The position numbers and the translations under genes are program-made. This document shows positions 43,618 through 64,000 of a stretch of 64,000 nt of DNA, piece by piece (position 1 is the first letter of the stretch; the number at the start of each line of letters is the position of its first letter). The stretch comes from Cyanophora paradoxa CCMP329 (taxonomy: Eukaryota > Plantae > Glaucophyta): contig QPMI01000533.1 of assembly GCA_004431415.1 (NCBI GenBank), positions 186,001 to 250,000 on the forward strand, read 5' to 3'. The notes below the pieces were generated by a model. It made no database searches. It was given only the letters and a program-made list of their open reading frames with translations, and had not been told where the DNA came from.

Positions 43618-44063
43618 TATCGGTATCATGATCATGATCTATGATCTATCGTTCTCGACGAGCGGCCCCGCCGGCCCGGGGGCTGGAGCCGCGGCGGAGC
43701 GGGTCGCCGCGTCGAGTCGGCGGACTCCGAGAGCCGCCGAGGCTCGAACCGGCCCCCTGTAGCCTGCAGGCTGCAGCCTGCAGCCCGGCCAGTGTTGTAT
43801 ACGCATGGACCTCACGACCGGGCAATTCCGCTTCGCTCCATTGCCCCCGATTCCATGCGTTTCCAGTGTATACCTCCACCCCATCTTCAGTTAATTCACC
43901 TTGTACGTCTACGAGCCCCTAATTCCCAGGTCTACCAGACTCGGGCCGGAGTCTTAACAAAGAAATATCTAACGACTATTCAGGACAGAGCTGACAACTA
44001 GAATAGGCGAAGAGGAGCGCTGCCCCCCATGCGCGCGGTCTGTAGAGCAACGTAGCAGAATAG

Positions 44064-44244
44064 GCTAGACGATATTAATGTGTGCATTGAGCTAACTGAG
44101 GAAACGCGTTCAGCATTAACTATAGGCGTGAGGGCGAGTACAGAGAAGCTAAACGAGGAAAGAGCGTCAAGGTAAAGCTAGACGAAATAAATGTGTGCAT
44201 CGAGCTAGCTGAGGAAACGCGTTCAGCAAAATCTATAGGCGTGA
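44064..44244. repeat. Two ~68-bp direct repeats in the putative terminal region
   Basis: gctagacga...aatgtgtgcat.gagcta.ctgaggaaacgcgttcagca....ctataggcgtga occurs at 44064-44131 and 44177-44244. Confidence 0.9.
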
Positions 44245-44445
44245 CTTCGGTAAGAAACGGGCCCCTTTTAGCGGTCTGGTGCGGCCTCTGGAGATGTGTC
44301 GATGACTTTACCTTTCTTTTGTTTTAATTGTTTTAATTGTTTTAATTCGGAGGGTCAAGTTCCTAAGAAAACTTTGCGGACGCCGTGACGTGACGCTGTG
44401 ACGTGGCGAGAAAACGGCGAGATACGTGACACACAAAAGAATGGT

Positions 44446-44508
44446 GCTGATAGTGCGCTGATAGTGCGCTGATAGTGCGCTGATAGTGCGCTGATAGTGC
44501 GCTGATAG
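44446..44508. repeat. 11-bp tandem repeat (GCTGATAGTGC) x5.7
   Basis: Read directly. Neighbours are (TTTTAATTG)x3 at ~44322-44348 and 12-bp GCCGGAGACGAA-like units at ~44598-44643. Confidence 0.95.
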
Positions 44509-44762
44509 CTAGCCCGAGAGCGGCCGCCAGGCTTGCACCATTAAGCCGGATACTGAAGACAAGCCAAGCCGGATCCATGCCGGATCCACGCCGGATCCCG
44601 GAGACCGAGCCGGAGACGAAGCCGGAGACGAAGCCGGAGACAAGTCTTGCAGTTAGTTGCATGGCTTAAAGGTTTCTCGCACTCATACTAGCAATCAGAG
44701 ATTGTGCGCGATTAAATCGCAAAAAGTTTTCGGCCAGCCAATATTGTAGAGACCTATTCATA

Positions 44763-47700
44763 ATGGACAGGAACAATCTGAGAGCGGAAATTCGGAGCCT
44801 TGCGCAGGAGCTACACACTCTTAGGTACATTAACGGAACATATTTGAACACACTGTTGCGGCTAGCTGACCCACAGAGGGGAACCCACACACAAAATCTT
44901 CGAGCAAATCTAGCGACATTGCTCAGACTTAGGCAGACGAACCGGCCGCAGCGCCCTTTGTACGAGGCATGGATAACAAGACATTTTGATAGCGAACGCA
45001 ATGCTCGAATTGCAACCACGCGAGAGTTTGATGATATTGTTGAGTATGGGATCTCGAATTTGTTTCGCGAGAGTGGTCGAGGCGATACCGTGTTAAATTA
45101 CGCCCACTATGCATATCCGGGGTTGCTATTTACCAAGGACGTTTTGGATATTGAACCGACTCCAATGCCTGAACGGGTGAAAGAGATCACGATCGTGTTT
45201 CTGATAGAGTTGCGAGTGCCAGAGAGAATTGGATCAAGCGTCCTAATTCGCTTTCATTTCGATAACTTTCGCATGTATCGCACTCAACTTGCAACAATCG
45301 AGGAGGGCACAATGCAGTCGCTGTTGTCAAACCTGGCTGAAAAGATGGAACAATGGATGCTAGCACAGCAGCCATATGAAGACAATGACCTATGGCCAGT
45401 AGTGAAAATAGAGGTGCTAATTGCAGAGAATGCTGCAGGTGCACTGGGAAACGTTCCAAAGCTCCCATTCAATGGCAAAGCCCTGACCATGAATAAGATC
45501 TACTGTCCGATTTCACCAGAGGACAACTGCGTGTTAGAGTGCTTTGAATATGTAAAGCTGAACCCTGGACGAATAAGCCTAGATCGTATTTACAAGCAGC
45601 TTCAGAGATTGGACTATGGAGGAATTAGAACACAGCTAGGACTGCAGCGAGGAATGATATCAGTTGATGTGCCGACAATAAATACGCTGAGCGCTTTTTA
45701 CAGGATAGACACCAGCGTTTTTGAGTTTTCGCAAGGAAAGTTCAAGCCGCTTTTTGCAACCGATCTAGGATTTGAAAAACGTGCTCACCTTTGCATTGTC
45801 GATGCGCACTGCTACCTGATTAAGGATAAAAGAACGACTGAAATGGAGAAGTGCAACGCCTGCGGGAAAATGCAGTTGGAACTGGAAAGGCACAAGGTAA
45901 CCTGTCAGTTTTGTACTAGGTGTCGTTGCGCCTACAATCCAGTTGAAGATCACACAAACAAATGCGTTGCGGCCATCAGAAACAAAGGTGTCATTGGAAG
46001 AAAGATCACCCCTTGCGAGAAGGAGAGTGAATTTACGGCAATGGAGAGCGTGATAGGGGCGGACTTTGAAACATTTCCTTGCGATGGCAAAACCCACGTT
46101 CCTTATGCTGTTGACACAGACATAATTTGCAAGGGCGAAATTGTAGGAACCAAGATGTTCTACGGTCCTGAAACATTAAATCAATTTATGCAATGGCTGG
46201 ATGATTGGGCAGAGAAGACCACAGTAGTATTTTACAACGGTGCGGGTTTTGATCTGATATTCATATACCGATGGCTGATAGAGAATCGGCCAGACAGCCA
46301 GGTGAACGTCATGCGCTCCTCGGGCAAGATTAAGAGTATGAAGTGGAAGACCTCAGCTGGAGGAGAGTTGACAAGTTTTGACCCATGCCTACACATTCAA
46401 GGCTCACTAAAGCAAGCCGGAAAGGACTACGGCTGCACGACAATCAAAGGAGACTTCGACCATCGCAAGATCAAGACGTGGGCAGATGTTGAGACACACA
46501 AGGAGGAATGGGGTGAATATCTTAGAGCCGACGTGCGATCAATGACGGAGCTATACATGAAATATTCGAGAACGTGTTTTGAGCTATTCGGAATTAATGT
46601 GAATTCTAAGCAGACACTTACAGCTTCATCAATGGCATTTCAGATTTACCGGCAGCTAATGAAGACAGAGCTGCACCTTCCGAAGTACAGCGAAGATCAG
46701 GTTTTTCGCAGGGCTATTTACGGAGGTCGCTGTTTACCATTCAAACGCAAGTTTGTCTCGAAAGGGTCTGATGACTATCTGGTAGATCTGGATGTGGTCT
46801 CTCTTTATCCGACCGCAATGTACTTTAACCAGTTTCCGACAGGTAAATTTAAGGTGATCAATGAACCGGAGGCTTTGGAGCGTTTTCGAAAGTTCATGCT
46901 AAGTCGAAAAATGGAGCAACTGTTCATTGCGAGCATAAGTGCGAAAATTCCTCAGGACCTTGTGCTTTCTCCGCTTCCACGCCACGAGTCGAATTTAGGC
47001 TGGTCGAACCTGAAACCGATCGAGCGAGAGATGTATACATCGGTTGATATCTACAGGGCAATAGCACTTGGGGTTGAAATAACAGAGGTGCACGAGGTGT
47101 ATTTATTTGAAGGCAAGGAGCGAATGTTTAAAGATTACATCGAGAAGTTGTACTGTATGAAGGCACGTTCAAGGAAGGGCACAGCTCAGTACGCAACAGC
47201 AAAGATTCAACTAAATGGTCTTTACGGCAAATTTGCCCAGCGGCCAGTGATTGAAGCCACGGAGCTAGTTTCTAATTACCGCCGATTTAAAGAGCTCCAG
47301 CGGACGTCTACGATTACAGACATCGAAATTGAGAGTGAAACACGGATGTATGTGACATACGAAGTACCAGAGAGCAAACGTGATGCTTGTGTGTCAAAGC
47401 CCTGCTTCATTGAAGCATTTATTCTCTCCTACAGTCGCGAGATCATGGACAGGTTCCTAGTAAAGATGAACTCTTACAAAGACATCGAAGCCATGCCGTT
47501 TTACACGGACACCGACTCTCTTGTTGTGCACAGGAAATTTGCAGAGCTTCTCTTAGAATGTATGAAGCAGCCATACTCTTTGGAGGGGATGTCAGAAGAG
47601 GAGGCGAACAGGGCGATATGCGAGAACGAGCTGGGAAAACTAGATTACGACATCCAAGGGCAAATTGTGGAGGCATACTTTGTTGGCCCAAAGGTTTACT

Positions 47701-48089
47701 GCTGTCGTTTTGTGAAGGCGAATGGGGAGTCTGACGTGCATGTGCGTGCGAAAGGAATTCCGAAGAGCTGGATAGAAGAGAACTGGCTTTCGAGTGATCC
47801 GGAGATGAGGAAGGGGCACCTCGAGTCACGGGTCGCTTTGGAAGCGTTCAAGCAGATGCTCGAGAGCCGGTATCAGCCGGAGTGCACAATAGAGTCTAAA
47901 CTAGCTCGAGTCTTCAAACCGAATGGAAAGCAACGCGAGGCAGGGATTGGCTTTAGTTCAATCATCCAGATTCCTTTCAGCAGAGTATTAAATAAGACGG
48001 AATACACAAAGCGAAAGATAATTTCGGATGACTATTACAGCACGGTTCCCCATGAGTACATCAGCCCGAATTCAGGAGGCATACTATGA
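44763..48089 (+). CDS. polB: Protein-primed family B DNA polymerase (pPolB)
   Basis: ExoI ADFET, ExoII YNGAGFD, ExoIII YLRAD, YGGRC, PolA DVVSLYPTAM, PolB KIQLNGLYGKF, PolC YTDTDSL, KVY. 1108 aa, uninterrupted. Confidence 0.97.
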   Translation: MDRNNLRAEIRSLAQELHTLRYINGTYLNTLLRLADPQRGTHTQNLRANLATLLRLRQTNRPQRPLYEAWITRHFDSERNARIATTREFDDIVEYGISNLFRESGRGDTVLNYAHYAYPGLLFTKDVLDIEPTPMPERVKEITIVFLIELRVPERIGSSVLIRFHFDNFRMYRTQLATIEEGTMQSLLSNLAEKMEQWMLAQQPYEDNDLWPVVKIEVLIAENAAGALGNVPKLPFNGKALTMNKIYCPISPEDNCVLECFEYVKLNPGRISLDRIYKQLQRLDYGGIRTQLGLQRGMISVDVPTINTLSAFYRIDTSVFEFSQGKFKPLFATDLGFEKRAHLCIVDAHCYLIKDKRTTEMEKCNACGKMQLELERHKVTCQFCTRCRCAYNPVEDHTNKCVAAIRNKGVIGRKITPCEKESEFTAMESVIGADFETFPCDGKTHVPYAVDTDIICKGEIVGTKMFYGPETLNQFMQWLDDWAEKTTVVFYNGAGFDLIFIYRWLIENRPDSQVNVMRSSGKIKSMKWKTSAGGELTSFDPCLHIQGSLKQAGKDYGCTTIKGDFDHRKIKTWADVETHKEEWGEYLRADVRSMTELYMKYSRTCFELFGINVNSKQTLTASSMAFQIYRQLMKTELHLPKYSEDQVFRRAIYGGRCLPFKRKFVSKGSDDYLVDLDVVSLYPTAMYFNQFPTGKFKVINEPEALERFRKFMLSRKMEQLFIASISAKIPQDLVLSPLPRHESNLGWSNLKPIEREMYTSVDIYRAIALGVEITEVHEVYLFEGKERMFKDYIEKLYCMKARSRKGTAQYATAKIQLNGLYGKFAQRPVIEATELVSNYRRFKELQRTSTITDIEIESETRMYVTYEVPESKRDACVSKPCFIEAFILSYSREIMDRFLVKMNSYKDIEAMPFYTDTDSLVVHRKFAELLLECMKQPYSLEGMSEEEANRAICENELGKLDYDIQGQIVEAYFVGPKVYCCRFVKANGESDVHVRAKGIPKSWIEENWLSSDPEMRKGHLESRVALEAFKQMLESRYQPECTIESKLARVFKPNGKQREAGIGFSSIIQIPFSRVLNKTEYTKRKIISDDYYSTVPHEYISPNSGGIL

Positions 48090-49188
48090 TCCAGAAACAG
48101 GGCTTCAGTCGGCCACACGTATTGCCAAGAAGTTGAAAATACCAGTTGCCAGGGTAAGAGCAGTGCTGGAGAAATTATCGACAGCGCAAAGATTTGCGAG
48201 GCCGCAAAAAGAGAAACCATTCACAAGTATAACATACGACAAAGCAGAGAAATACTACGAGGTGGACCTAATCGACGTGACTCCGTACGCCAGAACAAAC
48301 CGCGGCATTCACTTTATAATGAACGCAGTGGACGTAGTGACTCGGAAAGCCTACAGCATTCCAATGAAGAACAAGAGCGAAGGTACACTCCTTTCAACAC
48401 TACGGAAACTCATAGAGAGTTTTCCAGCCAAGCCGGATATTATTCAGACAGATCAGGAGTTTAAAGCTTCAGCTGCTAGTCTATTAGAAGCTGAGGGAAT
48501 TAAGCACAATGCTGTGGAAGCGCATCGACCCCAAGCAAATGGAAAAGTAGAGCGATTCAATGGAACTTTGAAGCGAATTATTGCACGGTATATGGAGGCA
48601 TATGACACGGATAGGTACATCGACAAGCTGCCCGCATTTGTGCGCAATTATAATTCGTCAGAGCATAGGTCGATTGGTACATCGCCAAACGCTGCAGCAG
48701 AGAATCCGAAGGAGACAATTGCACGCAACGATTATCAGCGAGAGGTCTACGAGCAGCAACACTACCTGAAGGAGGTCGAATTTAAAGTAGGAGACCTAGT
48801 TCGAGTTAAGCTAACCAGGAGAACCTTCGATAAATCGACAAAGCCAACCTTCTCGAAAGAAGTATTTCGAATTGAGTCGATTGGGGGTTTTGGACCCCTT
48901 CTTAGATTTAAACTCGCTGGATTGGATACACCAGTGACCTACCAGCAAATTTTGAAGGTCCCATTAGATTCAGAGGAGCGGCGTGCTGGAGGAGCAGCAC
49001 AGAGAGCAATGCAACGACGAAAGAAGGATCTAAATCTGATGCGAGAGAACTTAGATCGAGCGGACATAGAAAAAAATAAGAAGCTCATTCGCCTTCAAAA
49101 GCAACTTGCGACAGCTGGAACTGTCAAGTTAAATCCTGGTGGAATATTAGAGAGAACAAAGACCAGAAGGGCAGTCAAAGAGCTATAA
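48052..49188 (+). CDS. Retroviral-like (RVE, DDE) integrase, Polinton type
   Basis: YYDP N-terminus, EVDLID / QTDQEF / VERFNGTLK catalytic triad, YNSSEHRSIG and FKVGDLVRV...FSKEVFRI. Overlaps the pPolB stop. Alternative ATG at 48028. Confidence 0.96.
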   Translation: MSTSARIQEAYYDPETGLQSATRIAKKLKIPVARVRAVLEKLSTAQRFARPQKEKPFTSITYDKAEKYYEVDLIDVTPYARTNRGIHFIMNAVDVVTRKAYSIPMKNKSEGTLLSTLRKLIESFPAKPDIIQTDQEFKASAASLLEAEGIKHNAVEAHRPQANGKVERFNGTLKRIIARYMEAYDTDRYIDKLPAFVRNYNSSEHRSIGTSPNAAAENPKETIARNDYQREVYEQQHYLKEVEFKVGDLVRVKLTRRTFDKSTKPTFSKEVFRIESIGGFGPLLRFKLAGLDTPVTYQQILKVPLDSEERRAGGAAQRAMQRRKKDLNLMRENLDRADIEKNKKLIRLQKQLATAGTVKLNPGGILERTKTRRAVKEL

Positions 49189-49450
49189 CAACGCATTGTT
49201 GGAGAGACTCTAGCAGCGCTAACTTTTCGTAAATTCGATTGCGATAGCGGCGATTGGCTTCTAAATGATTCTCGCTGTTGTTCTGCTGGTATTTCGAACT
49301 GGCTTCAATGTGTCGTCGGCGAAATTCCGGATCTTCATTGTAACGACGGCGATGATTTTCAGCACGCTTTGCTTTTCGTGCCGCAGCAATTTCAGGGGTG
49401 ACAACAATTGGTTTGCGACCTCGCTGTTTAGGTGATGATTCAGCATCCAT
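49175..49450 (-). CDS. Small basic helical protein, putative DNA-binding
   Basis: MDAESSPKQRGRKP...RKAKRAENHRRRY...RRYRNRIYEKL; 91 aa from the ATG at 49450. Confidence 0.65.
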   Translation of the reverse strand: MDAESSPKQRGRKPIVVTPEIAAARKAKRAENHRRRYNEDPEFRRRHIEASSKYQQNNSENHLEANRRYRNRIYEKLALLESLQQCVVIAL

Positions 49451-49560
49451 CTTTGCGTGTTTTCTCGTCACAAACAAGGTGCGAAATCTTTTTATGGCAT
49501 AAATCGCAGGTTTGTGTTGCGTTAAATTCCGAACATAAAATCCGAGATATAATTCAAATA

Positions 49561-49839
49561 ATGGACGCAGACAAGCAGCGTCGCTGCGCCGCAGGAACAA
49601 TTCGATTTGGAAAATATAAAGGTGAAACTCATCTTAAAGTAGTTTTTAGCGACCCAAAATATGCTGAATGGTTATTGTCTTTGCCGCATCTGCGAGAGTA
49701 TGACAAACGTGAATTTCAGCGCGCTTTTGAGATATGTCAATTAGAAGAACCAGCGGTAGTTCAGGAAAGGATTGATCGAGCAAAACAGCAAAGAAGACCT
49801 ACTGTGGAGGATCTAACAGATTTGCCTGATTTCGATTAG
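49561..49839 (+). CDS. Small protein with an FGKYKG motif (DUF3820 / exonuclease X C-terminal-like)
   Basis: IRFGKYKGE...DPKYAEWLL matches the recalled FGKYKG...YxxW pattern. Confidence 0.65.
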   Translation: MDADKQRRCAAGTIRFGKYKGETHLKVVFSDPKYAEWLLSLPHLREYDKREFQRAFEICQLEEPAVVQERIDRAKQQRRPTVEDLTDLPDFD

Positions 49840-49898
49840 GCAATGCGTTTGCAAGTCTTAAAGAAATATCAATCCGATATTGTAAAAAGTGAAAGACA

Positions 49899-50510
49899 AT
49901 GGGAGGACACAACTATTTCGGCACACTTGCTCCAAGAGGTCTCTTTAGCACTTCAGATTATAGGGAGGCCACAGAGTCTAGTGATGAGGAAGTTTGTGAG
50001 GTGCGCAGACGTGTTCGCTCTATTCTTTGCAGAGATTGCAATGATGTCTGTGAAAATGAAGCAATGTGGAATCGAAATAACAACAAGTGTCACGAATGTT
50101 TTGAAAAGCAGTTTGACAAGATTATAACCTCATATGCAGGGGAAACGAGAGAGAAGCAGGAATACGGATGCTTTGATAAGATTTCAATTGTCCGAGAAGC
50201 ACGTTTGAAGTGTGCGAAGTGCAATGAATTTACGAGTTGGATACCTCAGCAAGAGCTGATGCAATACAGTGAAAAAGTAGTTTGGAACTGTAACCAGTGC
50301 AATCCATCTACGCCGTGGCTGAAGTTCAGATTTATCGTGTGGTATTGGGTGCCAAATCTAAAGAAAATCATGAAAAATGGAAGGCATGTCTGGGTATTAG
50401 CGAAAATGGATGAAATGAAACACAAATGTGGATGTTCCAAGTGTGTGGATGCAAATACTGTTGATCGATGTGTCACAGACGAATCCGTCTCCCACCCATC
50501 GCTCCCTTAA
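49899..50510 (+). CDS. Cys-rich, putative zinc-binding protein
   Basis: CxxC pairs CRDC, CHEC, CAKC, CNQC and CGCSKC; 203 aa. Confidence 0.7.
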   Translation: MGGHNYFGTLAPRGLFSTSDYREATESSDEEVCEVRRRVRSILCRDCNDVCENEAMWNRNNNKCHECFEKQFDKIITSYAGETREKQEYGCFDKISIVREARLKCAKCNEFTSWIPQQELMQYSEKVVWNCNQCNPSTPWLKFRFIVWYWVPNLKKIMKNGRHVWVLAKMDEMKHKCGCSKCVDANTVDRCVTDESVSHPSLP

Positions 50511-51102
50511 TCTGTGAGCTCGTTGAATTGGCTTCAGAAACATTGGGTGTAGCTGGCTTTACAGCTGCATCATCAAGAGCTTGTGAAGCCTTCTCTTTTT
50601 CGTTTTTGAGATAGCGTAAATCTGGTACGTCCATAGGTCTATGTTTAAACATCTCGCTGCGCAACATCTCGCGGATCTTCGCTCTCTCTTGCTTCTCTTT
50701 TACATACGATTCGATATTAGCCGATCGAGCCTCGAGATCTCGCAATTTAGCTGTTAGTTCCTCGATTTGACTCTTTGATACTGTTGCTGTCTTTATTTTT
50801 GGACCGGAGTATCTAGGCTCAGACGCCATGGCTTGGATAATTCTAGCAGCATCATCATCGATATCAGACTGCATTTCAGTTACAGTTTTGACCTGGCTTT
50901 GTCGGTCGTCAATCGCACTGGCGTTCGCTGCTGCAGAGGCAATTGTTTTAGCGACTGGCGCATTTAGGCGGGGGTCACTAGCTAGTTCACCACTAGGATT
51001 AGCAACAGCTGCGCCTTCAGTCGACCCACTTTCAACTAGTGGTTCAACAACATTGACCTTGCGTCTTTCACGATATCCCTTTTTAGGAATGCCTCTACCC
51101 AT
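50473..51102 (-). CDS. Hypothetical viral protein with basic N-terminus and coiled-coil segment
   Basis: 209-aa ORF in tandem with the ATPase, with an A/T-rich leader. IEELTAKLRDLEARSANIE is coiled-coil-like. Confidence 0.7.
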   Translation of the reverse strand: MGRGIPKKGYRERRKVNVVEPLVESGSTEGAAVANPSGELASDPRLNAPVAKTIASAAANASAIDDRQSQVKTVTEMQSDIDDDAARIIQAMASEPRYSGPKIKTATVSKSQIEELTAKLRDLEARSANIESYVKEKQERAKIREMLRSEMFKHRPMDVPDLRYLKNEKEKASQALDDAAVKPATPNVSEANSTSSQIKGAMGGRRIRL

Positions 51103-51111
51103 CTTATTAAT

Positions 51112-51858
51112 TTAAGATAAGATTTTAAAACGCCTCTTTTTAGAGACAACAGGCGAAGAATCTTCGGTCTTACGTTCTTCTTCATTCTTAAGCCATTTAG
51201 AGAAGCGAAAACTCTTATCTTCAACGGCTTTGTCAACGTACCAGGCCGTATCGTACTTGGTCCCATCCAGGACTAGGCACTGATAATCATGCGCCCAAGT
51301 CTCGAACAAGGCGATGAACTTATCTTTTGGGAGATGACTGAACTCTCTATAGATCGCCTCGAGCTCGGTATGATTAGAATAACTAAAGAAAAAGCAGTAA
51401 TCGCTGTTTGATCTTATAGATTGACTAAGAGCTGTTAGCTTTTGCGTCATAAGAATCGTACTTATATTAAAATGGCGGCCCTGCGTAAAAAGTCGATTTA
51501 CAGCCTTGCTGTTTCGCAGATCAACAGTTTCAGAGGCGGCAACTAGATCGTCCAATACAAGCAATATCTGCGGTGCTTTCTCTTTGTTTTCGATCAACTT
51601 TCGCTGTGAATCAATGATTTCTGCAACTATGGCGGGTTGAAAATCGTCGTAAAGCTCTTTAGTTATTGCAGAGTATTCACCATTGAATTTGGTGGCAGTG
51701 AAAACGACGACTCGGTTGATCTTTGGATACAGCAGTCGAAGCAGATGCTTTGTGCAATAGAACGATTTGCCGCTATTAGACTTTGAAATAAACAGGGCCT
51801 TAAAGGGGACCCTCATATCTCGCGGCTGGAACTTTGCAAGTTCTTGAGACTCATCCAT
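51112..51858 (-). CDS. A32/FtsK-like genome packaging ATPase
   Basis: Walker A-like SKSNSGKS, Walker B ILLVLDD, arginine-finger GRHFNIS, MTQ and IRSN motifs. Confidence 0.93.
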   Translation of the reverse strand: MDESQELAKFQPRDMRVPFKALFISKSNSGKSFYCTKHLLRLLYPKINRVVVFTATKFNGEYSAITKELYDDFQPAIVAEIIDSQRKLIENKEKAPQILLVLDDLVAASETVDLRNSKAVNRLFTQGRHFNISTILMTQKLTALSQSIRSNSDYCFFFSYSNHTELEAIYREFSHLPKDKFIALFETWAHDYQCLVLDGTKYDTAWYVDKAVEDKSFRFSKWLKNEEERKTEDSSPVVSKKRRFKILS

Positions 51859-55647: not shown

Positions 55648-57124
55648 TGTAACGTCCCCGGAAATCAAGCCGGAACGCATTTACATTTATAAATTCGTTT
55701 GTTATAATTTGCACATAGTTATACACCTGTGGGGTGATCAAATGCGAGTCACTATGCATTAGATCGAAGCCTGTCATAGATGGGTTTGCAGCAAGCACAT
55801 TTGCTAGGACCGTATTTTCAAAAAGCCTCCCATCTTGGACATATCCTAAGTTGGTCAGAATGCTGAAATTAAATAGGACTCCGGCAGCAAAGGCTGGCCC
55901 ATACATAATGATTTGATGTAGCTCAAAAGGCTTGGGAAACTCGACTTTGATCCAGGGATTAGGTAAAGTGCCACCCTGAAACCCTGTCGAGTTAGGCCGC
56001 ACGTGAGAAGGTGGGTGCAATTCCTCAAAGTCGTTGCTTGTGATGTTTGCATCTGGAATTATAAACCAGTTGACATCAAATGGAGGCTCAACTGTTAAGG
56101 TAGACGATATGACAAGTCTCTCATCGTTCAGTAGGTCGTAGTTCGCCAATAGAAAGCTGCAGAGTGCATTTATTTTGTTACTGATTTCGGTTTGTTTCAG
56201 CCATAAATCAGTCGTGGAAATCAAATAAGAAATATTCGAAGGCGAGGCATCATCAAGCTTGCTCATGACTGCAGCTGGCAGCGGAACACTTAAACGCCAG
56301 TACCTAGTTAGATTCCTATCTGCATCAACTGGAAGCAGCTCCTGCATTTGAAAGTGCGATTCCAGCTCGCTCCCAGCCATTAGCATAGAAATAATTGGGC
56401 TGCCTGAGAGGGATAGGATCCAGCCCAGGGCGCCCCAGCCTGACGTCTCCGCATTTGAAAAGCCTGCAGTCAGTTGCTCACTGGCTTGGACCTCACCACA
56501 GCTTATGCTCACAAGAACAATTGGATCCTCTGCATCGTATATTTTACTGGCGTGGCTGAGCGCAGCAACTGAGGGATTATTCAAACAGGCGATAGCCCCG
56601 TCAACAAGGTTTTTGTCTCCTAGCATCTTGGGTGGAAAGAATGTGGGCGCTGCAGAAGATGCTCTAACTGCATCACGAATCAGTGTGCTTGAATACGGCC
56701 CATCCTTGGTAAAGACTACGGGCTGCATCCGAACTGTATCAAACGCTGTAATTAATATGTCTTTTGTCGATTCTGCAATTGTGTAGTCCAGGGCAACGTC
56801 TGTGAGCACCGACTCTAGAGGGTTTGCATCATAGCGGCTTCCTGAGAGCAAGCTTGTCAGTGATCTCGGATTTGCGAATATTACTGGCAGGTTCGTTTTA
56901 TATAGACTCAAGATATCACCTGCAGAATATCGGTAAGCGAGAACAGAGCCTGGAGTTGATTGGATAGCCAAACCGGCCGCTATTATTGCCCCTGTCGAGG
57001 TGCCTGCAAAGAAATCAAACAGCTGTGGAATTGCTTTCCCAGTAATCGCCTCGATCCGCTGTAGAATTCGGGCAATGACTATGCCACGAGCACCTCCACC
57101 TGATAGTGAGAGAATGACCTTCAT
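55640..57124 (-). CDS. Patatin-like phospholipase with C-terminal beta-sandwich extension
   Basis: LSGGGARG oxyanion loop, GTSTG nucleophile elbow, ASSAAPTFFP and DGA..NNP. True start is likely MKVILSL at 57124. Confidence 0.93.
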   Translation of the reverse strand: MKVILSLSGGGARGIVIARILQRIEAITGKAIPQLFDFFAGTSTGAIIAAGLAIQSTPGSVLAYRYSAGDILSLYKTNLPVIFANPRSLTSLLSGSRYDANPLESVLTDVALDYTIAESTKDILITAFDTVRMQPVVFTKDGPYSSTLIRDAVRASSAAPTFFPPKMLGDKNLVDGAIACLNNPSVAALSHASKIYDAEDPIVLVSISCGEVQASEQLTAGFSNAETSGWGALGWILSLSGSPIISMLMAGSELESHFQMQELLPVDADRNLTRYWRLSVPLPAAVMSKLDDASPSNISYLISTTDLWLKQTEISNKINALCSFLLANYDLLNDERLVISSTLTVEPPFDVNWFIIPDANITSNDFEELHPPSHVRPNSTGFQGGTLPNPWIKVEFPKPFELHQIIMYGPAFAAGVLFNFSILTNLGYVQDGRLFENTVLANVLAANPSMTGFDLMHSDSHLITPQVYNYVQIITNEFINVNAFRLDFRGRYIN

Positions 57125-57148
57125 TTTTAAAAGGGGGCTTATATAAAA
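57125..57148. promoter_or_regulatory. 24-bp bidirectional AT-rich spacer/promoter between patatin and fibre genes
   Basis: TTTTAAAAGGGGGCTTATATAAAA separates two divergent ATGs. The TATATAAA motif recurs before other structural genes. Confidence 0.5.
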
Positions 57149-60100
57149 ATGTCCTACATCTTGAAGAAGCCAGTGCCACTTCGTAAAGCTCCAGATCTCG
57201 TGGATAATCGGCATATAAATATTCGCGTATTTGGGAGTACTCTGATTGATTACAATGCTGACAAAGATATACACCAGACCGCGTATAATCGCCCAGCTGC
57301 GTTAATTCTGCGCAACTCACATGTTGGCGCCCCGAACATTGCACAGAGATTTTGTCTGGGTCCGGCTGAAAACTATGTTGCTGAAATAATTGGATCCAGG
57401 GCGTTGCCGCGGCACCTGCGCATCGCCTCCTCAGGCACAGTTTCCAGGTATGATTCTGGTAGATTAATATTTAGGCTTCAAAACGATCGAGGGATTCACA
57501 TATCAGCTCTACGTCTAATTGATGAATCCAATGATGTCACAAACAAAACTGCGGCCCAAATTACAGGGAGAATTCTCCTTGGTGAAGACGCAGGAATATC
57601 AGTGCTAGCATCACAAATTCAGCCGTTTCCCTGGGATTTACTATATACTGCTGCAAGAGAGACAAATATTTTGTACGGTTTCGATGTTAATCAAATCGAT
57701 ACCGAGCCAGCCACCAGGTTAGATATTCCTGGATGCACCTTTGGCTCTATCCTGATTGAGGCTGACAGGCACCTGCTTCCAGCGCTGCATGACAGCTACG
57801 ATCTAGGGCTCCGCACCAGGCAGTGGCGAAATATTCATGGAACAAATATTTATCAGGATGGTAAGAAGGTAAGCACTGAAGAGGAGGTGATCAACATTTT
57901 CAACTACTACTTTGGACCTATTGTCCCTATACCACCTATACCACCTCTTCCAGGGCTACCAAAGCCGCCAACCCCGGACGGACCAGGTCGAGAGCGAGTT
58001 GCTGATGAAACAGTTCCTTTCGGGCAAAATATTATTTCGTGGGAGGCTGTCAGGAATCGCCCAGTGATTGAACCCTATAAGCATCCACATGAAGAATACC
58101 TGCCGCCTGATATTGAAGTTTTCCCACTCGAAATGTATACAGAGCCTGAAGAGCAGTTACTTCCTGATGGCTTAGATGTTCAAGAACTTGAGTATGATCA
58201 GCCTGTGATTCCGCATGAGCAGCTGCTTCCAGATGGCTTTGATCCTATTTTCTTCCCCTTGGAGTTCACAGTGGACTGGGAATCTATTAACAACAAACCT
58301 GAGCATTTTCCACCGGAAGATCACAGACATAACTGGGATGAAATCGATAATAAACCGTTGCAATTTCCACCAGAAGATCATAGACACGACTGGGATGATA
58401 TCGATAATAAACCGCTTGAATTTCCACCAGAGGATCATAGACACGACTGGGGTGACCTTGATAATGTTCCGCTTGAATTTCCACCGGAAGATCACAGACA
58501 CATTTGGAGCGAAATAGATGAACAGCCCGAGTTCGCAAAGTCTGAGCTTCCTGTCACGCTGGCTGTCTCTCTCTACAAATCAATTAACACAGCTGAAAGG
58601 CTATATTTGAATGACCACTATGTCCACAGGCAGGGAATTCGTGCCAACACTGACATGTCAGGCTCTTTGTTTGTGAGGATTCCCCGTGGAATGGAGATTG
58701 TTGCTGCAGGTGGAAATATTGGTTTGCAGGACACGTTCCCAAGTATTTATGTCACAAACTACTACGCCTCTGACATCGAAATGACAACTGTTCTACCCCC
58801 TTTGCCTTCACTGCCGTTAGATCCTCTCGCTCATGCTGATTTTCATTCTGCAATCCAGATTAACGTAACAGATGTTAGCGATTTAGATTCATCAAGACCG
58901 AAATTGGTTTTTAGCCGAGAACGTCTTTTACCAGATGCTTTAATTGGCAACCGAGACGATTATAAAAAATGCGAAATAGCATGGATAAAAACGAACTATA
59001 ATGGTGGAGTTGGGGAGGGTGTTTTAGAGATTAATCAGAGGGCAGCAGCTAAAAACATTCACAACGAAAATATTTCAAGAGTTGTCACCGAAGATTACGT
59101 TACGGCTGTAATACTTGTTAATTTCGTTACTCTTGCTATGCTTGTAAATTATGTAACAAAACCGGAACTTGCAGATGAATTAAAAACATATCTACCACTT
59201 GTTGGTGGGACGATCACCGGAAACCTAAAAGTGAATGGAACTCTTACGATTGGCTCAGGTAATGAAAATATATTACAAGAGCAGATACTACAAAGTTTCT
59301 ATGAAATCACAGCAAATGATGACCCAGCATTAAGGATTCCAAATTGTCTTTTTGCTTGGAAAGCATCAGGTGTTCCCGGTTCATCAGCCAATGGTGTATT
59401 TCTATATAATAGATCACCAAACAACTCAATATTTCCATCACTTAGAACAAACTCATTTAATGCCCTTTACACTTTAAATCCGGAGATAAATAACCAAATA
59501 AGTATTACAGCAGCCACAGGAAGATTTTCTAACGCTTTTCAGAGTTGGAATAATAAAACTGTGGATTGGTCAGCAGGTTTTACATATTTTTACATTGGTA
59601 AATATTATTCAGCAAGCGTTTCTGATACTCATTTAACCTTCGAACGAACAGGAGTAAGAAAAACCGATTATGGTAATCTATCGGCTACATCAGTTGGAAT
59701 GGTTTCGTTTAGTATAAATTATGCTCAGCAAACAAAACCATCATTTACCGTTCCATCTTTAATAAATAATTGGTATTACATAGATCATACAATTACTTCG
59801 GACAGCTATACAGTTGGATTAAATGGCATTGATGTTGGAACTGTAACTAACACAAACAATTATTTACCTGATTCTATTGTTAATAGTTTCGGAATTTTAT
59901 CAGTTTATGGGAGTATGTGTGAATTGCTTGTTTTCAACAGAGCATTAACCATAGCAGAAAAACAACAAGTGAGGTATTATATTCAGCAGATGTATGGATT
60001 TCCTATTACTCAACCTCTCACAATTTACAGAGGATTAAAGATAACATCACCAGAAACAATAATCGATAATCTCAGAGTAACAACTAATGCAACTCTACCA

Positions 60101-62941
60101 CATCATCCTACATCGAATGTTGTTTTAAATTGGTTAGCAGACCAAACGCACACAAAAGCAGATATTACGGATTTCGCCCATACTCACACAAAAGATCAAA
60201 TAACAGATTTCGCCCATACTCACACAAAAGATCAAATAACAGATTTCGCACACACTCACACAAAAGATCAAATAACAGATTTTGCCCATACTCATTTATG
60301 GGAGCATATCACAAATCCTCCATTAACCTTTCCACCTGATTCACACACTCATGATTATTCCGAAATCACAAACTCTAACCACAAACACCCATGGAGCGAA
60401 ATAGATGAAAAACCACGTTTTGCATCAACAGGTGATTTAGTAAATGGTGACGGATTTTATGGGGTAAGTTTCTATCAGAGTGACACCATCCCTGAAAGAT
60501 TACAATTAAGTGAATACTATTTGCACCGAAAAGGAATTGAAGCAGGCACCACAATGGATGGCGAATTGTATATTAAACAACCAACAAGAACAACATTAGT
60601 AGCAGCAGGTGGTAATGCATTAATAGATACCAAACCGGGTATTTATCTAACAAGTTACTATAATGAAGACATTCCAGTTACAGGAGGTTTACCACCGCTA
60701 CCATCTGATCCAGCAACTTATGATGACAAAGACGCCATTTTACAAGTGAATGTAACAGATGTAAGCGCTACTGATGGTTCACGTCCAAAAATTATATTTA
60801 GTCGCTCGAAATTCAATTACGCACCGCTTGCGGGACAACCCACAGATGATCACGGGAAATGTGAGATGGCGTGGATTAAAACGACATCAGGTGGCGCCTT
60901 AGAAGTCAATCAGAGAATGGCGGCGAAAAACTTACACAATACAACCCTTTCGGGTGTCGTTACAGATGATTACCTAACCAATAAAGGATATCTTACAACC
61001 GCAGATTTAAGCAGTTATGTAACAGAAACTGAATTAACGACGGCGTTAAATCCTTACGCAACAGATGCAGAATTAACAACGGCTCTTGCGAATTATTTAC
61101 CTCTTACAGGTGGAACCGTCACCGGAACCGTTAACGCTACCACTTTACAAATTGGCGGAACCACAATACCGAAAGGTTACGAATTCGACCAATTAGATAC
61201 TGTTTCGACAGATAGAAGCGCTAATAATTGGACTGTAACATGGGGAGCGAGAACAGGGCAAACAGGGTGTTTTACTACACCAGCAAATGATGAAGATTGC
61301 AGCGGTTGTTTTATGCGTTGGATAGTTCCGACAGGTATGAAATCATTTTATATTCAACATTTACCGTGGAGTAGTGGGAGATATTTTGATATCTACGGTC
61401 AAACTCTAAATGGGTTTCAGCATTTCTTAAAACGAGTTAATAATTATCAAGCAATAGCAACTACCGGAATTCAAGATGGAACACATCCGGCTATTCTCTT
61501 TATTTCAATAAATTGTGAGTTTTACAAATATATTTATGTTCAAGGTCGAAAAGGTCGCATTCATCTTACGGGGGTTTTCGGTTGGAGTAGACAAAGAGCA
61601 ACGGATAATGAGGTTGGTATGATCTCTTGGGATAATATTTTTAGTAAACCATCATTTTATTCAGCCGCAGACCTTCCACAAACAGCGACATGGACAACGA
61701 ATACATGGTTATCATCAACGGACAGTGTTCCGCGAATTTGGTTTGGAAATGGTAATACGACATATATTCGAGGTTATGGAAATAGTGATGGTGTTTCGAT
61801 TGAATTTAGAGACTCAGCAGATGGAGCAATATTAAAGTCTTATAACAATGGTAACTTTTGGGTGAAAAACACTATTACAGCACCTACTATTAATGCTACA
61901 ACAAATCTTCAAATAAATGGTAATGATGTCCCAAAGTTTCACGCAGCAGATAAAACAGTAGGAGGTATTGAATTTAATAGATGTTCTTATGGCGATTGGG
62001 AGTGGGCATGGAGTTCAGCATGGGATCCATATTATAATTATGGTTCTTACGTTTATAGTAAAAACTCTGATGACCAAACTTCTACCGCTTGGATAGACTT
62101 CGATATTCCAGAAGGATATCACAAAGGAACAGCATTTTTAACTTATTTACCTTGGGTTAGCTCACGACTTTTTGAAATTTGGGGAGTGAATCGACAAGGA
62201 AATGAAGTTTTTATTACATCAGTGAATAGTTATCAACCATACGCCACATCGCCTGATGGTAACCACAGTGGTTTAAATAATGTTCCTATACATCTTGGTA
62301 ATCGATTTTTGACTATTCGTATTAGACCAAAGATTGGAAGAGTTCACATTATGGGTATAAGTTACATGAAAATTTGGGTAGGAAATAGTTATGGTGGTCA
62401 CACCGGCTATATTCATTGGAATAATGTTTATAGTAAACCAAATATATTAACAGGAGCATTGGATGTTTGGTTTAACTCTAATGATGGATATAATCGTATT
62501 TATTTCGCGAATAATAACACCACGTATATTAAAGGAAGGGGGGATTATCCAATTAGATTTCGAAATGAATTAGATTCTGATATTTGTTGGATCGATCATA
62601 ACGGGCGGATGTGGATAAACAATTATTTAACACAAGGAAGTGACAGAAGATACAAAACAGACATTAAAAAGATAACCGGCGCTCTTTCAGCAATAGAGAA
62701 ATTAGAAGGAGTGAGTTTTAAACGAATCGGAAGTGAAAAAGACGGAACGAAATTAGGATTAATTGCACAAGATGTTCAACATGTAATACCAGAAGTCGTT
62801 AATGTGAAAAAAGATGATGGCTACTTATCTCTCGAATACACGGGTTTAATTCCAGTTCTCATAGAAGCCGTTAAAGAATTGTCTAAGAAATGCAAGAGTC
62901 TACAAGATCAAATAGATCAATGGCGCAGCCAGGCTGCTTAA
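57149..62941 (+). CDS. 1930-aa virion fibre/receptor-binding protein with phage tail-fibre-like repeats, LamG-like domain and C-terminal peptidase S74 chaperone
   Basis: HxHxWxxIxxKP repeats, YLPLxGGTxTG motifs (x2), MCELLVFNRALT.AE (LamG/ConA-like), and SDRRYKTDI...GLIAQDV...LIEAVKEL (S74). Confidence 0.88.
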   Translation: MSYILKKPVPLRKAPDLVDNRHINIRVFGSTLIDYNADKDIHQTAYNRPAALILRNSHVGAPNIAQRFCLGPAENYVAEIIGSRALPRHLRIASSGTVSRYDSGRLIFRLQNDRGIHISALRLIDESNDVTNKTAAQITGRILLGEDAGISVLASQIQPFPWDLLYTAARETNILYGFDVNQIDTEPATRLDIPGCTFGSILIEADRHLLPALHDSYDLGLRTRQWRNIHGTNIYQDGKKVSTEEEVINIFNYYFGPIVPIPPIPPLPGLPKPPTPDGPGRERVADETVPFGQNIISWEAVRNRPVIEPYKHPHEEYLPPDIEVFPLEMYTEPEEQLLPDGLDVQELEYDQPVIPHEQLLPDGFDPIFFPLEFTVDWESINNKPEHFPPEDHRHNWDEIDNKPLQFPPEDHRHDWDDIDNKPLEFPPEDHRHDWGDLDNVPLEFPPEDHRHIWSEIDEQPEFAKSELPVTLAVSLYKSINTAERLYLNDHYVHRQGIRANTDMSGSLFVRIPRGMEIVAAGGNIGLQDTFPSIYVTNYYASDIEMTTVLPPLPSLPLDPLAHADFHSAIQINVTDVSDLDSSRPKLVFSRERLLPDALIGNRDDYKKCEIAWIKTNYNGGVGEGVLEINQRAAAKNIHNENISRVVTEDYVTAVILVNFVTLAMLVNYVTKPELADELKTYLPLVGGTITGNLKVNGTLTIGSGNENILQEQILQSFYEITANDDPALRIPNCLFAWKASGVPGSSANGVFLYNRSPNNSIFPSLRTNSFNALYTLNPEINNQISITAATGRFSNAFQSWNNKTVDWSAGFTYFYIGKYYSASVSDTHLTFERTGVRKTDYGNLSATSVGMVSFSINYAQQTKPSFTVPSLINNWYYIDHTITSDSYTVGLNGIDVGTVTNTNNYLPDSIVNSFGILSVYGSMCELLVFNRALTIAEKQQVRYYIQQMYGFPITQPLTIYRGLKITSPETIIDNLRVTTNATLPHHPTSNVVLNWLADQTHTKADITDFAHTHTKDQITDFAHTHTKDQITDFAHTHTKDQITDFAHTHLWEHITNPPLTFPPDSHTHDYSEITNSNHKHPWSEIDEKPRFASTGDLVNGDGFYGVSFYQSDTIPERLQLSEYYLHRKGIEAGTTMDGELYIKQPTRTTLVAAGGNALIDTKPGIYLTSYYNEDIPVTGGLPPLPSDPATYDDKDAILQVNVTDVSATDGSRPKIIFSRSKFNYAPLAGQPTDDHGKCEMAWIKTTSGGALEVNQRMAAKNLHNTTLSGVVTDDYLTNKGYLTTADLSSYVTETELTTALNPYATDAELTTALANYLPLTGGTVTGTVNATTLQIGGTTIPKGYEFDQLDTVSTDRSANNWTVTWGARTGQTGCFTTPANDEDCSGCFMRWIVPTGMKSFYIQHLPWSSGRYFDIYGQTLNGFQHFLKRVNNYQAIATTGIQDGTHPAILFISINCEFYKYIYVQGRKGRIHLTGVFGWSRQRATDNEVGMISWDNIFSKPSFYSAADLPQTATWTTNTWLSSTDSVPRIWFGNGNTTYIRGYGNSDGVSIEFRDSADGAILKSYNNGNFWVKNTITAPTINATTNLQINGNDVPKFHAADKTVGGIEFNRCSYGDWEWAWSSAWDPYYNYGSYVYSKNSDDQTSTAWIDFDIPEGYHKGTAFLTYLPWVSSRLFEIWGVNRQGNEVFITSVNSYQPYATSPDGNHSGLNNVPIHLGNRFLTIRIRPKIGRVHIMGISYMKIWVGNSYGGHTGYIHWNNVYSKPNILTGALDVWFNSNDGYNRIYFANNNTTYIKGRGDYPIRFRNELDSDICWIDHNGRMWINNYLTQGSDRRYKTDIKKITGALSAIEKLEGVSFKRIGSEKDGTKLGLIAQDVQHVIPEVVNVKKDDGYLSLEYTGLIPVLIEAVKELSKKCKSLQDQIDQWRSQAA
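58273..58528 (+). repeat. 57-bp (19-aa) coding tandem repeat, DWxxIDNKPLEFPPEDHRH x~4.5
   Basis: Read directly from the DNA and the translation. Confidence 0.95.
60146..60296 (+). repeat. 36-bp (12-aa) coding tandem repeat, HTHTKDQITDFA x~4
   Basis: Read directly from the DNA and the translation. Confidence 0.95.
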
Positions 62942-62972
62942 CTGCCGTAATAAAAATGTCACAGTATAATAA

Positions 62973-63281
62973 ATGGCGACCTATCCACTTGGTGGATCTC
63001 CTTCTACTACTTCTGAGCCTGTCGCTCTTGCTTTTGATACTATCAAACTTGTAGCCGCACTACAAACTGTGGAAAAAACAATCCAGCAAACTAACAAACT
63101 GTCCCCAGTTGTTCATGAATATAAAAACCTCTTGGTTAATGTCCTTGCGCAATCTGCGTATGGAGATCCTGTCAGCAAGTATAATGAGCTTGACTCCAGC
63201 CTGAAAAATATGATGTCGATACTTCAAAACCTGTCAGCTTCTTATCAAGCCCTGGGATCGAATATGATTACTCCGGCCTAA
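62973..63281 (+). CDS. Hypothetical helical viral protein
   Basis: 102-aa ORF with a TATAATAAATG leader, co-oriented with the fibre gene. Confidence 0.7.
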   Translation: MATYPLGGSPSTTSEPVALAFDTIKLVAALQTVEKTIQQTNKLSPVVHEYKNLLVNVLAQSAYGDPVSKYNELDSSLKNMMSILQNLSASYQALGSNMITPA

Positions 63282-63320
63282 TGTTGGCTGCAATCTTTTT
63301 TTTTCTTGCGTTTCTATTAA

Positions 63321-64000
63321 ATGACCGAGTACAATCGGGTCCAGCTACCAATCTACTCGCTGGGCTCCCCAGCCATCCATATGAGACAGCACGAAGTAAG
63401 CGATGCCGTTGCTGGATTTGAGTCCACTGAGCGTCCAAACTCAACTAATGCATTTGATCAGCGATCAGTTATTCGGTGTAAAGAATTGCGTGCAGATAAA
63501 AACTCTGGAGTTGTCAAAACGACTCGATTACTAGTTACAAATGCCAATTTCTCACAGCCCATAACAGGGGGAGTTGATTCATATAGTGTTGACCTTCGAA
63601 GCATAAACTATGATCAAAACACTGCTGCCCTCACTGTGCGCTCCGGAGGAGCAGCTATTACCGGAGCCTGCCGAGTAAGTGGAGGGCTATCATCATCAAT
63701 TTCCATCAATGATGTACCGGACTTTTCAGTAGAAAATGTCGAAAATCGTAAACGAGTTCGAATGTACGTACCTTGCTGTGACCTCCCCTATGCACAAGCA
63801 CTAGTAGAAGTTGAGATAACAATAGCTAATTCAAGTACACCAAATGGTCTTGATGGTGAGAGGTTGCTTTCAAACAGAGAAATCCCCAAGGCACTTCAAT
63901 CGCTCTGTCAAGATCAAAATGATCAAATAGGTCATGTTTACACGTTCTTTGTACAGGGTCTAGGACACGCAGGACGGGGATACGTAGTTCGTAATATCAA
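63321..64000 (+). CDS. Hypothetical viral protein, truncated by window end (absent from the ORF track)
   Basis: ATG at 63321 (CTATTAAATG) and an open frame to the end: MTEYNRVQLPIYSLGSP...ALTVRSGGAAITGACRVSG..., possibly structural. Confidence 0.75.
   Translation, partial: MTEYNRVQLPIYSLGSPAIHMRQHEVSDAVAGFESTERPNSTNAFDQRSVIRCKELRADKNSGVVKTTRLLVTNANFSQPITGGVDSYSVDLRSINYDQNTAALTVRSGGAAITGACRVSGGLSSSISINDVPDFSVENVENRKRVRMYVPCCDLPYAQALVEVEITIANSSTPNGLDGERLLSNREIPKALQSLCQDQNDQIGHVYTFFVQGLGHAGRGYVVRNI

What the first reader, a model, noticed from the sequence alone, without database searches (positions are those of the whole stretch)
43791..64000. Near-intact endogenous Polinton-like virus with an unusually elaborate virion module
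Seen: more than 20 kb of intronless, tightly packed ORFs in an intron-rich, high-GC host, with catalytic motifs of pPolB, integrase, ATPase and patatin present and only one frame disruption. Known: pPolB + RVE integrase + A32 ATPase + DJR MCP + penton defines Polinton/PLV-type elements. Inferred: a young, potentially reactivatable provirus. Two pentons, a patatin and a 1930-aa fibre make it richer than canonical animal Polintons, and it may represent an undescribed lineage.
Basis: partly seen in the sequence, partly recalled or inferred. Interest (0 to 1): 0.85.

Follow-up and report, generated by a model that had tools for sequence, protein, structure and literature searches.

The report
Intact algal endogenous Polinton-like virus
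A nearly intact DNA virus of more than 20 kb sits in what is likely a glaucophyte alga's genome as one of many similar copies; it is real and predicted to build fibre-tipped particles, but this virus family and its lipase and fibre genes were already catalogued in that host.

Summary
From 43,791 to the window's end lies a 44%-GC, 93%-coding block in 63.5%-GC flanks. It encodes pPolB, rve integrase, A32 ATPase, a double-jelly-roll MCP (best match PBCV-1, Z 17.5), two penton-like genes, patatin and a 1,930-aa S74 fibre. Catalytic motifs are present and there is one visible frameshift. DNA runs hold many 90-99% alike siblings; in one of four runs all contig depth at the frameshift carries a one-letter indel, so it may be an assembly error. 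The closest MCP (64% identical) is a Cyanophora paradoxa protein that Bellas 2023 validated as an MCP, counting 366 hits in that genome. Bulzu 2025 lists 156 glaucophyte PLVs: 89 lipases, 37 S74 domains, no protease. Two pentons are reported in Trimcap B PLVs. The 'elaborate virion module' is therefore known for protist PLVs. Still open: this MCP lineage is rare (five credible hits among 1.84 billion representatives), unnamed, and looks Nucleocytoviricota-like. Eight of ten genes from 50.5 kb onward start at TAAA-like motifs (post hoc), hinting at a helper giant virus. The right end, TSD, junction-spanning contigs and activity were not shown.

The parts
43785..43790 (.). Host hexamer CCGGCC, candidate left copy of a 6-bp target-site duplication
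   Evidence: Sequence. It cannot be confirmed without the right end.
43791..44762 (.). Left non-coding end, likely a terminal inverted repeat. It starts AGT and holds a 68-nt direct repeat (44,064 and 44,177) and 9-12-nt tandem arrays.
   Evidence: Depth step and a high-depth contig starting at 43,793; repeats; no inverted partner in the window.
44763..48089 (+). [quoted passage not shown]
   Evidence: PF03175 1.7e-59; Exo and Pol motifs; best database relatives 31-35% identical over residues 400-1100.
48028..49188 (+). rve (retroviral-type) integrase, 386 aa
   Evidence: rve_3 2e-8, rve 2.6e-7; DDE motifs; same pPolB-INT tandem in metagenome loci L007 and L010.
49175..49450 (-). Small basic ORF, 91 aa, function unassigned
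   Evidence: No Pfam, PHROG or NCBIfam hit.
49435..49839 (+). 134-aa ORF with a weak ExoX-like C-terminal motif
   Evidence: PF20600 E 5.6e-4, below the family cut-off.
49899..50510 (+). 203-aa Cys-rich ORF, possibly zinc-binding (inference)
   Evidence: Several CxxC pairs in the sequence; no family hit.
50473..51102 (-). 209-aa coiled-coil-like ORF beside the ATPase
   Evidence: Only sub-threshold coiled-coil hits.
51112..51858 (-). A32-like genome-packaging ATPase, 248 aa
   Evidence: Pox_A32 1.8e-9; Walker A/B and QGRH.
51910..53298 (-). Double jelly-roll major capsid protein, 462 aa
   Evidence: 64% identical to P0001, a C. paradoxa protein validated as an MCP in PMC10120064 Table S2. Model pLDDT 56.8; Foldseek PBCV-1 E 5e-13; VIA Z 17.5, rmsd 4.4, 304 aligned.
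53369..54325 (-). Penton (minor capsid protein) 1, 318 aa, predicted
   Evidence: ESM Atlas feature hits of 0.97-0.98 to DUF5901 and Sputnik V18/19 clusters; families carried by 13-26% of members; recognition 2177, under the 2300 mark. No Pfam or PDB sequence hit.
54353..55248 (+). Penton-like gene 2, about 298 aa, divergent from penton 1, with one frame break near 54,805
   Evidence: Read with X at the break, global score against penton 1 z 4.1 (0 of 1000 shuffles, BLOSUM62) and z 2.6 (10 of 1000, BLOSUM45); 63 of 262 aligned residues identical; 7 collinear motifs. Local score not significant (112 of 1000).
55315..55647 (+). 110-aa accessory ORF, skipped in some sibling copies
   Evidence: Joint 55,226 to 55,649 in contigs of 3 of 4 runs; no family hit.
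55640..57124 (-). Patatin-like phospholipase with a roughly 170-aa C-terminal domain (discoidin-like by analogy, not detected here)
   Evidence: PF01734 7e-25; potato patatin 1oxw E 4.5e-21 over residues 2-312; no Pfam hit for the C-terminal 186 aa.
57149..62941 (+). Modular fibre, 1,930 aa: 19-aa and 12-aa HxH repeats, a duplicated ~300-aa block (44% identical), a weak LamG-like middle, two ~250-aa paralogous blocks (28%) and a C-terminal S74 chaperone
   Evidence: S74 3.6e-15; phage tail-fibre PHROGs; 9d93 tail collar fibre and 6f45; PTR 0.005 and LamG 0.035, both sub-threshold; internal duplications.
62973..63281 (+). 102-aa helical ORF, unassigned
   Evidence: Only sub-threshold hits.
63321..64000 (+). 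ORF of at least 226 aa, cut by the window end, unassigned
   Evidence: No significant hit.

Best explanation
This is one young copy of a multi-copy endogenous Polinton-like virus, likely in the glaucophyte Cyanophora paradoxa, that is predicted to integrate with its rve integrase, copy itself by protein-primed pPolB synthesis and package into a double-jelly-roll capsid carrying fibres. Shown here: the gene set, the intact catalytic motifs, the MCP fold and many near-identical siblings in the organism's DNA runs. Inferred from known PLVs: the A32 ATPase fills the capsid; the two pentons form the vertices; the fibre trimerises with help from its self-cleaving S74 chaperone and binds the host surface; the patatin breaches membranes at entry, as proposed for Gezel-14T, whose virions contain a fibre and a lipase. 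The copy is likely kept silent by CpG methylation. My pick for activation, at about 45%, is that late genes are read by a co-infecting giant virus's transcription machinery, as for virophage-like PLVs; autonomous nuclear replication is about 35%, and a copy now dead in practice about 20%.
For: Gene set and motifs. MCP; all 23 rows printed are viral capsid entries of double jelly-roll type. Multi-copy family: 1,658-2,388 contig pieces laid per run on 44,001-64,000, split about evenly between 99+, 95-99 and 90-95% alike; single high-depth contigs reach about 10-20 times the depth of copy-private contigs (rough). All 20 listed holders carry one organism label, from 2012, 2019 and 2024. Depth steps up at the terminus. 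Family composition in glaucophytes (PMC12220804 Table S6, columns counted by me): of 156 PLVs, 139 A32, 85 rve, 49 PF03175, 89 lipase, 37 S74, 0 protease. C. paradoxa methylates CpG on repeats and virus-derived genes and carries giant-virus endogenous elements (PMC12344493 passages). TAAA within 4 nt of the ATG, or TAA directly before it, occurs in 8 of 10 genes from 50.5 kb onward and TAAA in 0 of 5 genes of the replication arm; shuffles gave a mean of 2.9, P 5e-5 (pattern chosen after seeing the data). Poxvirus TAAAT and ASFV TATATA late initiators sit at the start site (PMC5294985 passages).
Against: No listed contig bridges the host-element junction with 31 or more letters on each side. 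The table was cut to the longest 32 pieces (466 not shown) and the host side had holes, so this test is inconclusive. The right end, TIR pair and TSD lie outside the window. Penton 2 carries a frame break in this sequence. The start-codon motif is post hoc, the spacers are AT-rich anyway, and no glaucophyte giant-virus promoter was available for comparison. No terminator-like hairpins: 8 of 8 intergenic folds had z above -1. The MCP model is only moderate (pLDDT 56.8, pTM 0.56). The host species is inferred from a paralogue's label, not given.
Confidence: 0.8

Rival explanations
1. Autonomous nuclear virus or self-synthesising transposon: the element uses host Pol II, needs no helper, and spreads by transposition or by its own particles, like TsV-N1 or animal Polintons.
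For: It has its own pPolB and integrase. TATAAA-like sequences could be host TATA boxes. No RNA polymerase or helper gene is required for this model.
Against: The TAAA motifs sit 0-4 nt from the ATG, and two divergent gene pairs have only 27 and 24 nt between starts, leaving little room for a TATA box at -25 to -30 plus a leader (PMC5294985). Several tested PLVs depend on giant viruses (10.64898/2026.06.19.733378 introduction).
Confidence: 0.3
2. This copy is a recently inactivated provirus: the penton-2 frameshift is real and the copy cannot make particles on its own.
For: The window shows the break. Logan contigs drop rare variants, so a copy-private change could be hidden (tool note).
Against: In run X2 the two contigs at 54,804-54,805 account for all depth there (1,843.4 + 1,437.9 = 3,281.3) and both carry a one-letter indel. 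X1, X4 and X20 also show it in part of their depth. The other coding indels listed come in frame-preserving sets (20 rows not shown). Assembly frameshifts are common in such elements (PMC10120064).
Confidence: 0.3
3. Contaminant or misassembly: a free or foreign virus joined to host DNA by the assembler.
For: No junction-bridging contig was listed. Nested repeats make mis-joins possible.
Against: Close paralogues lie inside C. paradoxa contigs (PMC10120064 Table S2 places P0001 at 301 kb of its contig). The stretch is held by 20 runs under one organism label across three release years. The boundary is a clean AGT start with an integrase present. No close relative appears in IMG/VR.
Confidence: 0.05

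Closest known systems
Endogenous PLVs of Cyanophora paradoxa (Bellas et al. 2023, PMC10120064; Bulzu et al. 2025, PMC12220804)
   Same: MCP 64% identical to a protein listed in Table S2 with an HHpred MCP hit at 98.47%. Same kit: A32, rve, pPolB, lipase, S74 fibre, no protease (Table S6).
   Different: I could not check whether this exact copy is in their lists. Their clusters are unnamed (272 and 94 hits under 'Iterative HMM searches', by my column count). In the parts I read, neither paper describes paired pentons or start motifs for this host.
Maverick-Polintons, class Polintoviricetes (group 1, adintoviruses)
   Same: pPolB next to rve integrase, A32 ATPase, DJR MCP, penton, AG-starting end.
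   Different: No cysteine protease in the 20.2 kb seen; MCP not in the Maverick-Polinton columns of Table S4; protist host; S74 fibre and patatin.
Gezel-14T (PgVV) and Tetraselmis PLVs, class Aquintoviricetes
   Same: Protease-free capsid module; fibre and lipase or FA58C genes clustered on one arm, replication genes on the other.
   Different: Gezel-14T uses TVpol and a tyrosine recombinase and an AAAATTGA early promoter. That exact motif is absent from this element.
Nucleocytoviricota-related PLVs (Zoravirus VC102, VC218, Zephyrvirus; 10.64898/2026.06.19.733378)
   Same: PLV-sized genomes with NCLDV-like capsid modules, often rve, sometimes pPolB and a lipase. Here the Atlas features point to Capsid_N/Capsid_NCLDV and DUF5901 clusters.
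   Different: No Mriya48, HUH or VLTF3 was recognised here. Zephyrviruses had no endogenous example. Cyanophora is not named in that preprint's main text; its supplements were closed.
Trimcap group B PLVs
   Same: Two minor-capsid genes in several members.
   Different: They carry three MCP genes; one is seen here.

Membership tests
Polinton-like viruses (broad sense) | Double jelly-roll MCP | tested here: met
   PBCV-1 Z 17.5, rmsd 4.4, 304 aligned; paralogue validated in PMC10120064.
Polinton-like viruses (broad sense) | A32-like packaging ATPase | tested here: met
   PF04665 1.8e-9 and motifs.
Polinton-like viruses (broad sense) | Minor capsid protein (penton) | tested here: met
   Atlas feature hits to DUF5901 and V18/19 clusters (moderate strength); paralogous second gene. 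No structure was predicted.
Polinton-like viruses (broad sense) | 15-40 kb element bounded by TIRs, with a TSD if rve-encoding | not testable with these tools
   The right end is outside the window and no genome is held; the left end is defined.
Polintoviricetes (Maverick-Polintons) | pPolB and rve integrase | tested here: met
Polintoviricetes (Maverick-Polintons) | Adenain-like cysteine protease | tested here: inconclusive
   None among 16 ORF pieces scanned, but the element is cut. PMC12220804 Table S6 gives 0 proteases in 156 glaucophyte PLVs.
Polintoviricetes (Maverick-Polintons) | MCP or ATPase groups with Mavpol1/2 or Gossevirus | not tested
   No reference set was available. PMC10120064 Table S4 counts the C. 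paradoxa MCPs outside those named columns (my column count).
Aquintoviricetes | Reduced module: MCP, mCP and ATPase without protease | tested here: inconclusive
   Met within the window only; the right end is missing.
Aquintoviricetes | MCP within the TsV, PgVV or Dino groups | not tested
   No profiles on hand. PMC12220804's PLV MCP models hit 2 of 156 glaucophyte PLVs (my column count).
Virophaviricetes (virophages) | Virophage-type MCP | tested here: inconclusive
   Mavirus Z 9.9 and Sputnik Z 9.5 rank well below NCLDV MCPs at 14-17.5, which argues against; no virophage HMM was run.
Nucleocytoviricota-related PLVs (Zora, Zephyr, Mriya-like) | NCLDV-like MCP and mCP | tested here: inconclusive
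   Atlas and fold hits lean this way, but no PLV MCP appeared among the named rows, so the ranking may reflect library content.
Nucleocytoviricota-related PLVs (Zora, Zephyr, Mriya-like) | Mriya48, HUH endonuclease or VLTF3 | not testable with these tools
   No Mriya48 profile was available. No Pfam hit to such families among the ORFs scanned; six ORFs remain unassigned.

The most novel reading that the evidence does not exclude
An unnamed lineage with a giant-virus-like capsid module (NCLDV-type MCP plus two DUF5901-like pentons forming mixed vertices) has massively colonised a glaucophyte genome. It swaps replication arms and fibre receptor domains between copies, and its pox/asfarvirus-style late starts are wired to an as-yet-unisolated glaucophyte giant virus, making it an inducible antiviral defence and an endogenous, culturable member of the PLV-to-Nucleocytoviricota continuum.
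Probability: 0.2. Interest if true: 0.65.

Novelty: new member of a known kind. Interest (0 to 1): 0.35.

Why it matters
As found, it is a clean example of a known phenomenon: protist genomes full of intact PLVs. Its value is as a handle. The likely host grows axenically and has methylome data (PMC12344493), and the MCP lineage is rare and unplaced. If it belongs with the Nucleocytoviricota-related PLVs, it would give that group an endogenous member in a culturable host. The start motif makes a testable prediction about a helper giant virus of glaucophytes.

Tried and rejected
No whole genome is held, so the right end and copy count could not be read directly. No RNA holder was listed; this says nothing on expression. 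No junction-bridging contig was listed, and host-side bins without cover prove nothing. Word-based protein searches with the MCP found only P0001. The full HMMER search found 6 hits at E<=0.001; I dropped P0048, a 1,206-aa repeat protein, as spurious. IMG/VR scans with MCP, ATPase, pPolB and the MCP alignment found no relative. The 110-aa ORF gave 2 matches but no loci and nothing in phages. The first metagenome scan with the MCP found none. The pPolB-alignment scans gave 5 viral loci and 19 metagenome loci; they share pPolB, integrase (2 of 24) or ATPase (6 of 24 by tblastn), and none had a detectable MCP, penton, patatin or fibre match. PDB sequence searches for MCP and penton gave only repeat or noise hits. 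The first fold with 2 sequences was poor (pLDDT 38.5), though it already ranked NCLDV capsids first. Pairwise BLAST of penton 1 against the penton 2 pieces was not significant. A mimivirus-style hairpin rule was not supported. No tRNA or tmRNA in the window. I built no MCP or pPolB tree because the relatives retrieved carry no lineage labels. Three look-ups in earlier findings returned nothing. CpG observed/expected in the element is 0.87, within the 0.52-1.07 range of eight metagenome loci, so it gives no age or methylation signal.

Full report
Observation. The window changes at 43,790/43,791 from 63.5% to 44.0% GC. After a 972-nt non-coding end that starts AGT come 15 tightly packed intronless genes, covering 98% of the DNA from the first ATG to the window's end. 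Pfam assigns pPolB, rve integrase, A32 ATPase, patatin and a C-terminal S74 chaperone on the 1,930-aa ORF, and the catalytic motifs are present. One frame break is visible, near 54,805. The last ORF runs off the window, and no inverted partner of the left end is present.

The capsid protein. The 462-aa ORF has no Pfam or PHROG hit. Its only hit in the word-based search is P0001, 64% identical, which the collection labels Cyanophora paradoxa. A full HMMER search of 1.84 billion representatives found 6 proteins at E<=0.001; five align as capsid relatives (P0001 included) and one repeat protein was dropped. Folding with 7 sequences gave pLDDT 56.8. Foldseek ranks PBCV-1 and iridovirus MCPs first (E 5e-13), and BFVD gives the same picture. 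VIA-align gives PBCV-1 Z 17.5 (rmsd 4.4, 304 aligned), faustovirus 16.0, vaccinia D13 14.9, mavirus 9.9, Sputnik 9.5 and adenovirus 7.5.

Pentons, lipase and fibre. The 318-aa ORF matches DUF5901 and Sputnik V18/19 clusters by language-model features (0.97-0.98; recognition just under the tool's mark). The divergent gene at 54,353-55,248, read with X at its break, aligns globally with it better than all 1000 shuffles under BLOSUM62 and 990 of 1000 under BLOSUM45, and shares seven collinear motifs that I picked by eye. The local score was not significant. I therefore accept two pentons as likely; neither was folded. The patatin probably starts at Met31, which leaves a 24-nt spacer to the divergent fibre. 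The fibre is built from phage-like HxH repeats, two internal duplications, a weak LamG-like middle and S74.

Copies and junction. Twenty listed runs hold 57-61% of sampled words, all under one organism label. On 44,001-64,000, each of four runs laid 1,658-2,388 contig pieces spread across 90-100% identity, with over 1,100 variant rows. Single shared contigs reach roughly 10-20 times the depth of contigs private to this copy; this is a rough figure, not a copy number. Depth rises sharply in the bin holding 43,791, and a high-depth contig starts at 43,793, as expected for a terminus shared by many insertions. No listed contig bridges the junction, but the table was cut and the host side had holes, so that test is inconclusive. 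At the penton-2 break, all X2 depth carries a one-letter indel and the other three runs show it in part of their depth. An assembly error is more likely than not (about 65%), but contigs drop rare variants.

How it most likely works. Shown: genes, motifs, fold and siblings. Inferred: the integrase inserts the linear genome, likely with a 6-bp duplication (candidate CCGGCC). The host likely silences it by CpG methylation, as reported for repeats and virus-derived genes in C. paradoxa (PMC12344493, passages). On activation, pPolB would copy the genome from its ends and the ATPase would fill a double-jelly-roll shell; fibres matured by S74 would bind the next cell and patatin would aid entry. Gezel-14T virions contain MCP, mCP, a fibre and a putative lipase (10.1101/2022.07.28.501842, passages). 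Eight of ten genes from 50.5 kb onward have TAAA within 4 nt of the ATG or TAA directly before it; the narrower TAAA pattern occurs in 6 of those 10, 0 of 5 replication-arm genes and 22 of 620 other ATGs. This recalls poxvirus TAAAT and ASFV TATATA initiators (PMC5294985, passages) and leaves little room for host TATA boxes. The pattern was chosen after seeing the data, so I give helper dependence about 45%.

Comparison with what is known. PMC10120064 (main text part 2 of 7, passages, and supplement rows) lists P0001 as an MCP (HHpred 98.47%) and counts 366 MCP hits in C. paradoxa in two clusters without a group name. PMC12220804 (abstract, results parts 1-2 of 5, the fibre section part 1, and supplement rows) tabulates 156 glaucophyte PLVs with 85 rve, 49 PF03175, 40 D5-type domains, 89 lipases, 37 S74 and no protease. 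It calls S74 fibres ubiquitous in most host groups and describes discoidin domains in glaucophyte PLVs, some fused to patatin. PMC8502044 (section 3.4) already noted adintovirus-like genes in C. paradoxa contigs. The 2026 framework preprint (10.64898/2026.06.19.733378, parts 1-3 of 5) reports two pentons in Trimcap B and defines Nucleocytoviricota-related PLVs; its main text does not name Cyanophora and its supplements were closed. A second preprint (10.64898/2026.10.13.758929, abstract and parts 1-2 of 5) reports routine swapping of replication and capsid modules. My searches for a paper on this family were made; none returned a dedicated description, but the library lacks most subscription papers.

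Verdict. This is a real, young endogenous Polinton-like virus that works like a protease-free PLV carrying a Polinton-type pPolB and integrase. Membership of Polintoviricetes, Aquintoviricetes or the NCLDV-related group is not settled. The features flagged as unusual have precedent, so interest is modest (0.35). The rare unplaced MCP lineage and the start motif are the parts worth following.

Noticed in passing
window 44,668-50,670 versus 50,671-58,007: Summed contig depth is 3.3-4.2 times higher over the capsid arm than over the replication arm in 4 of 4 DNA runs, with loose ends at 50,819. The tool warns that such depth cannot rank genes, so this is only a hint that siblings share this capsid arm with other replicases; PMC12220804 lists both pPolB and D5-type helicases in glaucophyte PLVs.
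   Followed up: partly
window 59,053-59,915 and 60,009-62,634 (fibre): The LamG-like middle is covered by exact-match, low-depth contigs (likely private to this copy), while the flanking HxH repeats are very deep and many joints skip or loop within the gene. This suggests modular fibre shuffling among copies.
   Followed up: partly
window 55,226-55,649: Contigs in 3 of 4 runs skip the 110-aa ORF, joining the end of penton 2 to the end of the patatin, so this gene is optional in the family.
   Followed up: no
window 54,326-54,352 and 57,125-57,148: Two head-to-head gene pairs (penton 1/penton 2 and patatin/fibre) share AT-rich spacers of only 27 and 24 nt.
   Followed up: partly
window 40,635-41,614 (- strand): Host ABC-transporter gene pieces about 2 kb from the insertion (PF00005 5.6e-14).
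   Followed up: no
window 11,458-13,641 (+ strand): Host gene pieces with a weak F-box hit (E 0.03) followed by leucine-rich segments.
   Followed up: no
L007:5,465-10,214 and L010: Metagenome elements with the same overlapping pPolB-integrase tandem (integrase about 31% identical) but no detectable match to this capsid module.
   Followed up: no
proteins P0047, P0049, P0050, P0052: ENA metagenome proteins 22-26% identical to this MCP, showing that the lineage exists outside this host; their contigs could not be fetched.
   Followed up: partly
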